NCBI GenBank assembly: GCA_951406725.2 | Contig: OX597819.1 | Span: 113,088,001 to 113,152,000, forward strand | Reading direction: 5' to 3' | Length of the DNA stretch: 64,000 nt | Source of the DNA: Octopus vulgaris | Lineage: Eukaryota | In this document: piece by piece, positions 1,218 through 62,873 of the stretch | Numbering within the stretch: the first letter of the stretch is position 1 | How the letters are laid out: the number at the start of each line of letters is the position of its first letter | Notes under the pieces: generated by a model | What the model saw: the letters and a program-made list of their open reading frames with translations, nothing else | Databases searched by the model: none | Told to the model about the DNA's origin: nothing | Made by a program: the position numbers and the translations under genes

Positions 1218-2485
1218 CGAGGGACGTTCAATAAGTAATGCCCCTGACCCCCTTGCATTTGTTTGATCTAGCTGAATATATCTATAGATTAAGTGGCAAA
1301 TTATAGCTCTGAACTAATTGTGCTTTCTGATTTACAGGTGTTTGAACTGAGTCAAGTGTGAAATGGAGTTTGTTGAGTGCCGAGCAGTGATCAGGTTTTA
1401 GTATTTGAAAGGACGCACACCACGGGAGACTTTTGATGAAATGAAAGTAACTTATGGTGATGATGCCCCATCATATGACATTGTAAAACGCTGGCATCGT
1501 GAATTCAAACATGGCCGGAACTCTGTGGAAACAGCTCCCAGATCTGGTCGCCCCCCTTCTGCCATTGATGAGGCATCTGTCCGTCAAGTTGAGGCTGCCA
1601 TTTTGGAAGATCGACGCATAACTATTCGCCAAGTAGCCTATGAGGTCAAGATTAGTATCGGGTCTGTGGAAACTATCATTCATGACCATTTGCATATGCA
1701 AAAGGTGTCTGCCAGATGGATTCCCAGATTGCTCACACCTTTCCAGAAGCAAGAACGCGTCGAGTGCTCGAGGATGAATTTGGAGATGTGCCAAGAAGAT
1801 GAGTCAAAATTTTTCAAAAGACTGATTACACAGGATGAAACCTGGGTCCATCACTATGATCCAGAGACCAAAGCCCAGTGAATGCAGTGGAAGCACCGTG
1901 ATTCACCTCCTCCAAAGAAGGCAAGGGTGCAGTCCTCCGCTGGTAATGTCATGCTCACAGCCTTCTGGGACCAGGACGGAGTAGTGATGACAGATTTCCT
2001 GGCAAAGGGTACCACAATTACAGGAGCCTATTATGCTTCACTTTTGAGGAAATTAAGAGAAGCTATCAAATTCAAGAGGCGGGGCAAGATCACAAAGGCA
2101 TCCTCCTCCTGCAGGACAATGCTCCGGTCCACAACTCGCGTGTCGCCAGATCAGAAGCACAGGCATGCGGCTATGAACTCCTCCCCATCCCCCCTACTCT
2201 CCTGACCTTGCACCCTCTGATTTTCACTTCTCCCCAGCCATAAAGTTGTTTTTGAAAGGAAAGCGTTTCCCAGATGATGCATCCTTGATTTCTGAAGTCA
2301 CGTCGTGGTTGGGGGACCAAGCTGGGGTCTTCTACAAAAACGGTCTCCAGAGCTGCAGCAAACGATGGGAGAAATGCGTAAATCTGGGTGGTTCCTATGT
2401 AGAAAAAGACTAACAATTGTGCAAAGTTTCGTTGCTCTACTGCTATGGGAGGTGGGTCAGGGGCATTACTTATTGAACGCCCCTC

Positions 2486-9385: not shown

Positions 9386-9577
9386 TAATGAAGAGCAAGC
9401 ACAGAAAACAACAACGCGAGGACGTGGTACGTGTAAAGTATTAGCAGACGTTCAGGGAAGGAAAGAAATATGGTTTAACATTTCGGACAGAGCTCTTTTT
9501 ACAGAAACAGAGGAAAGTCCAATAGAAAGGAAGACGGAAGAAGAAAATCACCAACGGGTCACATGTGGTTATATTTT

Positions 9578-29952: not shown

Positions 29953-31244
29953 CGAGGGGTGTTCAATAAGTAATGCCCTTGATCCACTTCCCATAGCAGT
30001 AGAGCAACGAAACTTGTCACAGTTATTAGTCTCTTTCTACATAGGAACAACCCAGAGTTACGCATTTCTCCCATTGTTTGATGCAGCTCTGGAGACCGTT
30101 TTTGTAGAAGACCCCAGCTTAGTCTTCCAACCACGACGTGACTTCAGAAATCAAGGCTGCATCATCTGGGAAACTCTTTGCTTTCAAAAACAACTTCATG
30201 GCTGGGAAGGGGTGAAAATCAGAGGGTGCAAGGTCAGGAGAGTAGGGGGGATGGGGGAGGAGTTCATAGCCGCACGCCTGTGCTTCTGATCTGGCGACAC
30301 GCGAGTTGTGGACCGGAGCGTTGTCCTGCAGGAAGAGGATGCCTTTGCTGATCTTGCCCCGCCTCTTGATTTTGATAGCTTTTCTTAATTTCCTCAAAAG
30401 GGAAGCATAATAGGCTCCTGTAATTGTGGTACCCTTTGCCAGGAAATCTGTCATCACTACACCGTCCTGGTCACAGAAGACTGTGAGCATGACCTTGCTA
30501 GCGGAGGGCTGCACCCTTGCCTTCTTTGGAGGAGGTGAGTCACGGTGCTTCCCCTGCATTGACTGTGCTTTGGTCTCTGGATCATAGTGATGAACCCAGG
30601 TTTCATCCTGTGTAATCAGTCTTTTGAAAAATTTTGACTCATCTTCTTGGCACATCTCCAAATTCATCCTCGAGCACTCGACGCGTTCTTGCTTCTGGAA
30701 AGGTGTGAGCAACCTGGGAATCCATCTGGCAGACACCTTTTGCATATGCAAATGGTCATGAATGATAGTTTCCACGGACCCGGTACTAATCTTGACCTCA
30801 TGGGCTATTTGGCGAATAGTTATGCGTCGATCTTCCAAAATGGCAGCCTCAACTTGACGGACAGATGCCTCATCAATGGCCGAATGGGAAGACCAGATCT
30901 AGGAGCCGTTTCCACAGAGTTTCGGCTATGTTTGAATTCACGATGCCAGCGTTTTACAAGGTCATATGATGGGGCATCATCACCATTAGTTACTTTCATT
31001 TCATCAAAAGTCTCCCGTGGTGTGCGTCCTTTCAAGTACAAAAACCGGATCACTGCTCGACACTCAACAGGCTCCATTTCACACTTGACTCAGTTCAAAC
31101 ACCTGTAAATCAGAAACCACAATTATTTCAGAGGTGTAATTTGCCACTTAATCTATAGAGATATAAATAATTCCACATGCAAAATTTCAGCTAGATCAAA
31201 CAACTTCAAGAGGGTCAGGGGCATTACTTATTGAACGTCCCTCG
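29953..31244 (-). mobile_element. Mariner (DD34D) DNA transposon, full length, copy 2
   Basis: Same TIRs as copy 1, TA TSD, 1292 bp. Confidence 0.97.
30026..31077 (-). pseudogene. Mariner transposase pseudogene
   Basis: 34 residues counted between the Asp of QDNA and the Asp of PSDF; frameshift near 30888 and premature TAA at 30119-30121. Confidence 0.95.
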
Positions 31245-44662: not shown

Positions 44663-45313
44663 GGATCTTTTCCTTTTGAACGGCAGATGTCAACACAATT
44701 TCTAGTTAACTAAACACTTTTAAACTTCGTATACTGGTAGAATGCATTTATAAAACATCATTTTCTCTTGGTTTTATTGAGAAAATTCTATAGTTTGTAA
44801 GATATTTCGTCCGAAAATCCGAGCATTTCGGCAATTTTAACCAATCGATTACCTCCATTCAACTAAAATCATTTGCTGCGTCTAAAACTGAGACAACATC
44901 GTGTAACTAACCCTAAACCTTCCCCCTAACCCTAACCCTAACCCTATTTTTTTTTTCTTAATTGTTAAATTAATTTAATTCCATTGCTTTAGTTTTTTAC
45001 ACGCGTAACAATTAAATTAATTTAACAATTAAGAAAAAAACAATTTAGGGTTAGGGTTAGGGTTAGGGGGGAGGTTTAGGGTTAGTTACAGGATGTTGTC
45101 TCGGTTTTAGACGCAGCAAATGATTTTAGCTCAAAAGAGAGCATAGGATTGGTTAAAATTCGAAAAATTAAACTACGTTAAACAAACAAATTACAATTTT
45201 CTCAAGAAAGCCAAGAGAAAAAAATGTTTTATTTTGACACATTCTACCAGTATACGAAGTTTTAAAGTGTTTAGTTAACTAGAAATTGTCTGCCGTTCAA
45301 AAGGAAAAGATCC
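44663..45313. mobile_element. GGATC foldback transposon, fully palindromic, with telomeric repeats
   Basis: 8-bp TSD AGCAGTGG at 44655-44662 and 45314-45321; (CCCTAA)n 44908-44946 and (TTAGGG)n 45044-45085. Confidence 0.93.
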
Positions 45314-48474: not shown

Positions 48475-48710
48475 TGAGGAATTATGAACATTATTTACAT
48501 TATTTATATTCGATGGATATTTGTCCCCATTTTGTTTGTTGTTAACACAAAGTTTCGGCTGATATACCTTCTAGCCTTCTCCATGTTTGAAATTTCCCCA
48601 AGACACCTGAAGAAGGTTGGAGGGTATATCAGCCCAAACGTTGTGTTAACAACAAACAATTTGAGGACAAATATCCGTCGAATGTAAATAATGTAAATAA
48701 TGTATATAAA
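48475..48710. mobile_element. Foldback element with hammerhead motif in each arm
   Basis: About 100-bp inverted arms; GACAC-CTGAAGA-A-GGTTG..CAGCC-(C)AAA-CG-TT-GTGTT at 48602-48647; homologous to 62552-62873. Confidence 0.75.
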
Positions 48711-48964: not shown

Positions 48965-49029
<65 letters not shown>

Positions 49030-49098
49030 GGTCCCGGGTTGAGTCGGGGTTAACCACAGTAAATAAGGTACTCAATACACAGCAGAGTAAATTAATTT

Positions 49099-49215
49099 AT
49101 TTTATAGAAGGAGCTTTACAGGACTAGAACTGTTTCATTCAAATGAAATCATCAGGAAGCTTGCTGATGATTTCATTTGAATGAAACAGTTCTAGTCCTG
49201 TAGAAGCTCCTTCAT

Positions 49216-49220
<5 letters not shown>
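49099..49220. ncRNA. Two head-to-head type I hammerhead ribozyme motifs in a palindrome
   Basis: Both strands read CTGATGA-tTTCatttGAAt-GAAA-CAG-ttctagtc-CTG-TA, with stem I AGCTT/AAGCT; inversion centre AAGCTT near 49160. Confidence 0.65.
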
Positions 49221-49266
<46 letters not shown>

Positions 49267-49271
<5 letters not shown>

Positions 49272-49463
49272 ATCCAAACAAGAAAACACAAAAAAACACA
49301 CAAAAAAACACAACAACGCGAGGACGTGGAACAAATAAAGTATTATTGGACGCTCGGGAAAAAAGAGAAGAAGGGGGGTTTAACGTTTCGAGCGGAACTC
49401 TTCTTCGGAAACATAGGAGAAGGGAAGACAGAGGAAAAAAAATCGCCAGCGGTACTCACGAGG

Positions 49464-49468
<5 letters not shown>
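49267..49468 (-). mobile_element. Penelope-like 3' tail with minimal hammerhead motif
   Basis: GTTT-CCGAAGA-A-GAG ttccg CTC-GAAA-CG-TT-AAAC at 49378-49412(-); lies between TA/CA arrays. Confidence 0.6.
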
Positions 49469-62371: not shown

Positions 62372-62551
62372 GGTGGTGGTGATGGTGGTGTTAATGATGC
62401 GGTTGTTTTATCCATAGGTCAGGCCTAATTGAGCAGATAGAATTTTGTGGCTTTCGTCACTGTTCACAATTATCTTTAAAAAGAAATTTTAATGTATATA
62501 GATGTAATTTTTGACGGTGAATCCGACTTTCTTCAGTTCTATATTTAAGAT

Positions 62552-62873
62552 ATGAGGAATTATGTACATTATTTACATTATTTACATTCGACGGATATTT
62601 GTCCTCCTCTTGTTTGTTGTTAACACAACGCTTCGGTTGATATACCCTCCAGCCTTCTTCAGGTGTCTTGGGGAAATTTCCGAACCTAGGTTCTCATTCC
62701 TAAGGAATTTTTAGGATAATAATAACATCGAAAAATACCATAGGAATGATAACCCAGGTTCGAAATTTCCCCCAAGACACCTAATGAACACAGCCAAAAC
62801 GTTGTGTTAACAACAAACAGAATGAGAACAAATATCCGTCAAATGTAAATAATGTATATAATGTAAATAATGT
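62552..62873. mobile_element. Foldback element with hammerhead motif (same family as 48475)
   Basis: About 150-bp inverted arms; minus-strand motif at 62622-62667 has intact CTGAAGA and a GAAG variant. Confidence 0.75.

What the first reader, a model, noticed from the sequence alone, without database searches (positions are those of the whole stretch)
49027..49220. Bidirectional twin hammerhead ribozyme palindrome
Seen: a near-perfect palindrome of about 120 bp, embedded between (TA)n arrays. Each strand has an intact CUGAUGA and GAAA core, a stem III (A-CAG/CUG-U, 8-nt loop) and a GUA cleavage triplet. The two motifs share the central AAGCTT as their stem I 5' strand; stem II is short and closed by U-U. 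Known: type I hammerheads mark Penelope-like elements (PLEs) and retrozymes, and PLEs often carry an inverted, truncated 5' repeat. Inference: this is a roughly 200-bp PLE-derived unit whose inversion point lies inside the ribozyme, so transcripts from either strand could self-cleave or fold into a long dsRNA hairpin.
Basis: partly seen in the sequence, partly recalled or inferred. Interest (0 to 1): 0.75.

Follow-up and report, generated by a model that had tools for sequence, protein, structure and literature searches.

The report
Head-to-head Penelope retroelement stump
This mirror-image stretch is one of hundreds of near-identical short leftovers of a Penelope-like jumping gene, likely built afresh at each landing from two short DNA copies of the start of its RNA; its two ribozyme motifs are predicted to be locked in a long hairpin rather than to cut, so it is a mostly ordinary by-product that hints at how these elements insert.

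Summary
The 120-bp palindrome and both hammerhead motifs are real. The unit is the pLTR end of an autonomous Penelope-like element (713-aa RT plus C-terminal GIY-YIG-type ORF with Hydra-clade motifs): a tailed direct arm joined head to head to a tail-less inverted arm, in (TA)n. G000 holds 666 exact copies of this junction, but junctions vary and arise in several subfamilies, so the palindrome is a recurrent insertion product, not a mobile unit. Arms stop at the 5' edge of ribozyme stem I (47 of 90 copies; 31 of 70 in a sister family), 29 nt below a TATA-like box: likely the RNA start. The hairpin beats the ribozyme fold by about 70 kcal/mol, and both arms of this copy lack the first stem-I pair, so self-cleavage is unlikely; clustered A>G/T>C changes in probable RNA runs hint at editing of such hairpins. 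Unexplained: 530 of 8,835 arms carry small deletions right after the predicted cut (none of 95 sister arms). The architecture is published, and this scan noted it before in at least 28 genomes.

The parts
48968..49026 (.). (TA)n target array, tail side
   Evidence: 30 of 30 best copies are preceded by (TA)n on this side
49027..49099 (-). One-sided PLE tail; in full-length copies it runs on into the 5' leader and the ORF start about 46 nt further on; inferred outer RT start site at 49027
   Evidence: 2081 exact matches of a 26-nt piece
49100..49159 (-). Direct arm: type-I hammerhead motif in element sense (core 49155-49149, triplet 49119-49117); first G after the predicted cut is missing
49157..49162 (.). 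Head-to-head junction AAGCTT = 5' strand of stem I on both strands; inferred RNA start and annealing site of the two cDNAs
49160..49219 (+). Inverted tail-less arm: second hammerhead motif (core 49164-49170, GAAA 49183-49186, predicted cut after 49202); C>G change at 49163 breaks the first stem-I pair; ends at the inferred inner RT start site
49219..49267 (.). (TA)n target array, inverted-arm side

Best explanation
This is a short insertion of a Penelope-like retroelement with Hydra-clade protein motifs, made of two copies of its ribozyme-bearing end joined head to head, likely built at insertion by two separate reverse-transcription events and predicted to fold as an inert RNA hairpin rather than to self-cleave. 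Shown: family size, parent ORF, one-sided tail, variable junctions, pile-up of arm ends at the 5' edge of stem I, TATA-like box 29 nt upstream in full pLTRs. Inferred: the endonuclease nicks both strands of (TA)n; each DNA end primes cDNA at one of two internal RNA sites (about +23 and +91 from the scissile bond); on RNA started at the pLTR promoter both cDNAs run off at about -45, both end in the self-complementary AGCT, anneal there and are repaired into a palindrome with a tail on one side. The ribozyme is functional, if at all, in the parent RNA; in read-through transcripts of the stump it is zipped into a 55-60-bp duplex that is a likely ADAR substrate.
For: Parent: long copies carry RT and endonuclease frames upstream of the same end; 25 of 30 full-ORF loci show the ribozyme just before the ORF start, all 25 with an intact cut site (3 lacked the start motif, 2 were truncated). 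Recurrent making: 666 exact junction sites in both the TGATGA and TGAAGA subfamilies, arms concordant in 49 of 50 listed sites; junctions vary from +62 to kilobases. Two independent cDNAs: in 17 of 75 two-armed copies the inverted arm reaches more than 5 nt further upstream than the tailed arm, and cut-site lesions were in one arm only in 16 of 59 copies, different in both in 1, identical in 0. Wall: furthest arm end at -41..-50 in 47 of 90 copies, beyond in 18; sister family -41..-52 in 31 of 70, beyond in 9, again at the start of its extended stem I. TATA-like box 29 nt before the A of AGCT in 67 of 70 distinct contexts matched. In vitro a PLE nicks and extends both strands and starts at two internal sites that bound the tail (PMC11167929). 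Hairpin versus ribozyme fold: 68 and 74 kcal/mol for this copy, 75 for an undamaged palindrome, 1.8 for an isolated intact pLTR arm. Clusters of 3-6 A>G or T>C changes in contigs of three probable RNA runs from three studies; two such strings have 0 matches in G000; 0 of 133 genomic arms have 3 or more such changes.
Against: No RNA start was mapped; contigs cannot show ends. The sister family has no conserved TATA box at matching spacing, and the count is conditional on a pattern that demands the box. Both walls coincide with short palindromes (AGCT, CTAG), so annealing bias could add to the pile-up. Asymmetric junctions could come from later deletions at palindrome centres. One hand-picked copy has the same lesion in both arms. 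The RNA label of the runs is a guess, the individuals differ from G000, 24 loose-end rows were hidden, and no contig ties editing to this window's copy. 10 of the 100 listed tail matches were left out of the 90, at least 4 of them long copies, so long copies are under-counted. Clade assignment rests on motifs, not on a tree; Pfam did not recognise the RT or endonuclease fragments of this family.
Confidence: 0.78

Rival explanations
1. Fold-back self-priming: one cDNA stops at AGCT, folds on itself and copies itself, giving the inverted arm (the reading given for Adineta Penelope palindromes).
For: Subfamily and private variants are mostly shared by both arms; junctions sit at short palindromes in both families; proposed in PMC3846280 (passages); one copy has the same lesion in both arms.
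Against: The inverted arm often holds sequence absent from the tailed arm (17 of 75); lesions confined to the tailed arm occur (5 of 59, and this window's copy); one of 50 listed junctions joins two subfamily variants.
Confidence: 0.12
2. The 193-bp palindrome is itself a non-autonomous mobile unit (retrozyme- or MITE-like) copied whole.
For: 682 candidates and 40 of 40 scored copies at 91-100% over nearly the full length; 666 identical centres.
Against: The same centre occurs in different subfamilies with matching arms; junctions and arm ends vary; no tandem arrays and no inverted repeat at the tail end. The best-hit set is biased towards the query.
Confidence: 0.05
3. The palindrome is a working twin ribozyme: an internal promoter fires outward from the centre, so each transcript begins with one free arm that self-cleaves.
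For: D. virilis Penelope has an internal promoter (PMC2377424, passages); an isolated intact arm is only 1.8 kcal/mol from the ribozyme fold.
Against: The stump lacks the upstream TATA-like box; both arms of this copy have a broken first stem-I pair (5.5 and 13.2 kcal/mol from the fold; the second value is for the unshifted register); metazoan PLE hammerheads cleave poorly alone (PMC4209133) or need the PLE protein.
Confidence: 0.05

Closest known systems
EN+ PLE insertions with an inverted 5'-truncated pLTR and a one-sided tail (Craig et al. 2021, PMC8557442; Arkhipova et al. 2013, PMC3846280)
   Same: Head-to-head inverted end, palindrome at the junction, tail on one side only, partial tandems before the ORF, microsatellite target.
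   Different: Here the tail is about 65-70 nt instead of 30-40, and ORF-less stumps are the majority product with a sharp preferred junction.
Hydra clade of PLEs, including Hydra-1_Obim (2507 bp, (TA)n; PMC8557442 section 11 and supplement row)
   Same: RWR for RWK, DKT, CxCx5C linker, CxxC and CxH around the conserved E and N, no CX2-5CxxC, (TA)n target, hammerhead present.
   Different: This family has a 2-3.4 kb microsatellite-rich 3' UTR and exceeds the usual <3 kb; no sequence comparison with Hydra-1_Obim was made.
[quoted passage not shown] 2024, PMC11167929)
   Same: Type-I topology in the pLTR just before the ORF; opposite-strand pairs 100-700 bp apart already noted in S. mansoni; two internal RT start sites bound the tail.
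   Different: Longer stem III (4 bp, 8-nt near-palindromic loop) and a weak U-U-closed stem II without the usual G10.1-C11.1; PAc RNA reads showed no ends at the cut, whereas this family shows lesions there.
Non-LTR retrozymes (bioRxiv 10.64898/2026.07.22.740005, first fifth read)
   Same: ORF-less, pLTR-derived, type-I hammerhead.
   Different: Retrozymes are head-to-tail tandem repeats; these are dispersed head-to-head pairs.

Membership tests
Type I hammerhead ribozyme | Core CUGANGA, GAAA and NUH triplet in type-I order | tested here: met
   across 90 copies subfamily differences fall on N7 and loop II, core positions vary in 0-5 of about 60-76 arms each
Type I hammerhead ribozyme | Three helices with compensatory changes | tested here: met
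   Sister family (42% ORF identity) keeps the core at the same place with different, still paired stems I, II and III (read by eye; MAFFT mis-registered the two families)
Type I hammerhead ribozyme | Intact stem I next to the core in this copy | tested here: not met
   Both arms lack the first pair
Type I hammerhead ribozyme | Match to an Rfam hammerhead model | tested here: not met
   No hammerhead family at E<=10
Type I hammerhead ribozyme | Self-cleavage after the triplet | not testable with these tools
   Needs a cleavage assay
EN+ Penelope-like element (parent) | Single ORF with RT and C-terminal GIY-YIG endonuclease | tested here: met
   713-aa ORF with YRDD and YIG motifs; 1116 homologs at E<=1e-20, a few carrying PF01541 or PF00078; Pfam did not hit this family's fragments
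EN+ Penelope-like element (parent) | Partial tandems forming pLTRs, inverted 5' copy, one-sided tail | tested here: met
   tail longer than the published 30-40 bp
Hydra clade | RWK-like, DKT, CxCX5C linker, CxxC and CxH, no CX2-5CxxC | tested here: met
   against the description; the sister ORF has one linker Cys changed
Hydra clade | (TA)n insertion preference | tested here: met
Hydra clade | Generally under 3 kb | tested here: not met
   ORF plus 2-3.4 kb 3' UTR; a typical trait, not a strict one
Hydra clade | RT phylogeny groups with Hydra references | not tested
Neptune or Nematis clade | CX2-5CxxC linker | tested here: not met
   my first label 'Neptune' was recalled and is withdrawn
Non-LTR retrozyme | Head-to-tail tandem units each with a hammerhead | tested here: not met
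   Copies are dispersed and inverted
MITE | Terminal inverted repeats at both ends and a fixed internal sequence | tested here: not met
   One-sided tail, variable centre, linked RT ORF

The most novel reading that the evidence does not exclude
The small deletions right after the scissile bond (530 of 8,835 arms; loss of the first G, the fourth G or both, made independently in each arm) are scars left when the reverse transcriptase jumped across ribozyme-cut RNA held together by stem I. That would be genomic evidence that a PLE hammerhead sits at the very 5' end of the element's RNA, cuts in vivo and that cut RNA still serves as template; the resulting thousands of head-to-head stumps would in turn be a genome-wide source of edited double-stranded RNA.
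Probability: 0.25. Interest if true: 0.65.

Novelty: new member of a known kind. Interest (0 to 1): 0.38.

Why it matters
How PLEs make their inverted ends and what their hammerhead does are open questions in the papers read. A young family with thousands of near-identical insertions gives a natural read-out: a sharp stop at the ribozyme's first base, two start sites, and arm-private lesions at the cut are all directly testable by 5'-end mapping and an in vitro RT assay. The stumps are also a plentiful class of perfect 55-60-bp RNA hairpins. The single locus has no sign of a function of its own.

Tried and rejected
Rfam: only sub-threshold miRNA-type hairpin matches, nothing relevant on an intact pLTR. 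Pfam missed this family's ORF pieces; the RT and GIY-YIG hits in L098 belong to another, nested element. 'Neptune' label (recalled) dropped. No RNA holder was listed on record; contigs cannot show RNA starts or ends, and one search showed no A>G excess at 5%. Run-off at the cut site was looked for and not seen: inverted arms ending within 4 nt of the cut (4 of 72) are no more common than in neighbouring stretches. The lesion hot spot did not reproduce in the sister family (0 of 95 arms, p about 0.001 against 14 of 141). A 60-nt tandem with the lesion in all three units looked like a mini-circle product but is a local duplication. Assembly artefact rejected: the same ends, and one junction end, appear in runs of several coded organisms. 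No PLE ORF remnant and no host exon were recognised in the window by a crude ORF listing, so it is unknown whether the copy lies in an intron. A target-site duplication cannot be read in (TA)n. Search of earlier findings by sequence was blank. Paper searches found no report of this family's stumps, of a stop at stem I or of cut-site lesions; the library is partial and Repbase and Dfam were not seen.

Full report
Observation. The region 49100-49219 is a near-perfect palindrome of two 60-nt arms centred in AAGCTT, between two (TA)n arrays. Each strand reads as a type-I hammerhead: stem-I 5' strand, CTGATGA, a three-pair stem II closed by T-T, GAAA, a four-pair stem III with an 8-nt loop, GTA, stem-I 3' strand. 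A paired descriptor found these two sites and two others in the window, against 2 hits in 20 shuffled windows together. In this copy the stem-I pair next to the core is broken in both arms. Rfam has no hammerhead match here or on an intact copy.

Family. The 193-bp unit is a dispersed repeat: 682 candidates, 2081 exact matches to a tail piece, 2499 to one core variant, 8305 to the intact cut-site region. I oriented 90 of the first 100 listed tail matches on contig C1 (10 left out, at least 4 of them long copies). Their usual form is (TA)n, an inverted arm without tail, a junction, a direct arm with a tail of about 65-70 nt, (TA)n. An inverted arm was found in 72 of 90. Junctions vary; the commonest is the one in the window, present 666 times as an exact palindrome and in more than one subfamily, with matching arms in 49 of 50 listed sites.

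Parent. Copies with arms kilobases apart enclose a microsatellite-rich 3' UTR and an RT-endonuclease frame on the ribozyme's sense strand, which is the window's minus strand. Partial tandems show the ribozyme and tail directly before the ORF start; 25 of 30 such loci show the cut site and all 25 are intact. The 713-aa ORF has RWR, DKT, YRDD, a CxCx5C linker, YIG, CxxC and CxH, and no CX2-5CxxC, the features given for the Hydra clade (PMC8557442 section 11), which lists Hydra-1_Obim with (TA)n targets (supplement row). No tree was built. The host looks like an octopus (recalled; earlier notes say the same).

Is the ribozyme real? In the family, subfamily differences fall on N7, loop II, loop III and the upstream spacer, not on the core or stems. 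A sister family found by protein search (42% identity, many intact frames, 5597 exact tail matches) has a hammerhead at the same place with different but paired stems. This supports a selected ribozyme in the parent RNA. Cleavage was not tested.

How the palindrome forms. Counting from the scissile bond, inverted arms begin at about +21..+31 (70 of 72) and tailed arms at +88..+91; the furthest arm end lies at -41..-50 in 47 of 90 copies, further upstream in 18, short of it in 25 (the -50 values are alignment overrun at perfect centres). The sister family repeats this: -41..-52 in 31 of 70, further in 9, shorter in 30 (70 of its first 100 listed matches), again at the start of its stem I. A TATA-like box lies 29 nt before the A of AGCT in 67 of 70 contexts that a box-demanding pattern matched, although the spacer differs between subfamilies; the sister family lacks a conserved box at that spacing. 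Frangieh et al. showed that a PLE protein nicks and extends both target strands and starts at two internal RNA sites that bound the tail. I infer twin priming, run-off at the RNA start and annealing through AGCT. Against plain fold-back: the inverted arm reaches further than the tailed arm in 17 of 75 copies, and cut-site lesions are arm-private (11 inverted only, 5 tailed only, 1 different in both, 0 identical, 42 none, of 59). One hand-picked copy has the same lesion in both arms and two have different ones, in line with independent events. Later deletions at palindrome centres remain a possible confound.

What the stump does. For read-through RNA the hairpin is favoured over the ribozyme fold by 68 (plus) and 74 (minus) kcal/mol, and each motif is transcribed after its own antisense. 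Contigs of three probable RNA runs from three studies carry arm sequences with 3-6 clustered A>G or T>C changes; two of these strings are absent from G000 and 0 of 133 genomic arms have three such changes. This hints at A-to-I editing of family hairpins; the RNA label is a guess, no matched DNA was available, 24 table rows were hidden, and nothing ties it to this copy.

Unexplained lesion hot spot. 14 of 141 arms have an indel in the four bases after the triplet, against 11 in 1650 arm-windows elsewhere with a T-run window (8 of 125) left out (p 4e-10). Genome-wide there are 530 shortened against 8305 intact sites. Of the 100 listed, 46 lack the fourth G, 32 lack both the first and the fourth G, 17 lack the first G, and only 1 is the simple loss of one A. 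The frequent double loss points to one junction-type event. RT crossing cut RNA would explain it; so would pausing at stem I or at a hairpin that spans the cut in this family. Against the cleavage reading: 0 of 95 sister arms show it, the commonest form keeps the base at the cut, arms do not pile up at the cut, and PAc RNA reads showed no ends there.

Comparison and verdict. Inverted pLTRs with junction palindromes, one-sided tails and opposite-strand hammerhead pairs are published. The scan holds 137 similar findings in at least 28 genomes, some with the twin-priming and RNA-start readings; I reached mine before that look-up and count it as no support. Papers seen: PMC11167929 abstract, main text and start of methods (2 of 4 parts); PMC4209133 abstract, results, discussion (2 of 4 parts); PMC8557442 passages, section 11 and supplement rows; PMC3846280, PMC2377424 and PMC13282606 passages; bioRxiv 2026.07.22.740005 first of 5 parts (its supplements are closed); the rest as search listings only. 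The Hydra ribozyme file of PMC8557442 was not read and may already show this motif. Verdict: real, a new member of a known kind; interest 0.38.

Noticed in passing
window 48482-48709 and 62549-62871: A second head-to-head palindrome (105-nt arms) of another repeat family whose arms carry a CTGAAGA...GAAAC-GT hammerhead-like core, damaged in the 48482 copy; a related inverted pair lies at 62.5-62.9 kb.
   Followed up: partly
window 49268-49465 (minus), related piece at 9405-9557: The repeat abutting the right (TA)n array carries its own minimal hammerhead-like motif (core at 49408); it flanks several other copies too, so this spot is a nest of (TA)n-targeting elements.
   Followed up: partly
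window 63603 (minus): Another type-I minimal hammerhead-like motif with a short palindromic stem III.
   Followed up: no
L233-L322 (G000, sister family): A younger Hydra-like family with many intact 727-codon frames and 5597 exact tail matches makes the same twin-ribozyme palindromes centred on GCTAGC; both families share a small TACTC/GAGTA hairpin in the tail, a candidate protein-binding site.
   Followed up: partly
L123-L142: The parent's 3' UTR is 2-3.4 kb of (TA)/(TG)/(TATG) microsatellite carried along in every long copy, so the element may spread microsatellites that resemble its own target.
   Followed up: no
L098:2701-5024 (minus): A different RT plus GIY-YIG element nested between the arms of a long copy.
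   Followed up: no
L323:280-470: A 60-nt local triplication of the cut-site region inside one stump.
   Followed up: yes
window 44907-45085: Short facing arrays of CTAACC and TTAGGG units, telomere-like by recall.
   Followed up: no
window 1402-1878 (+) and 30122-30898 (-): Two related frames that look like mariner-type transposase remnants (label recalled, not tested).
   Followed up: no
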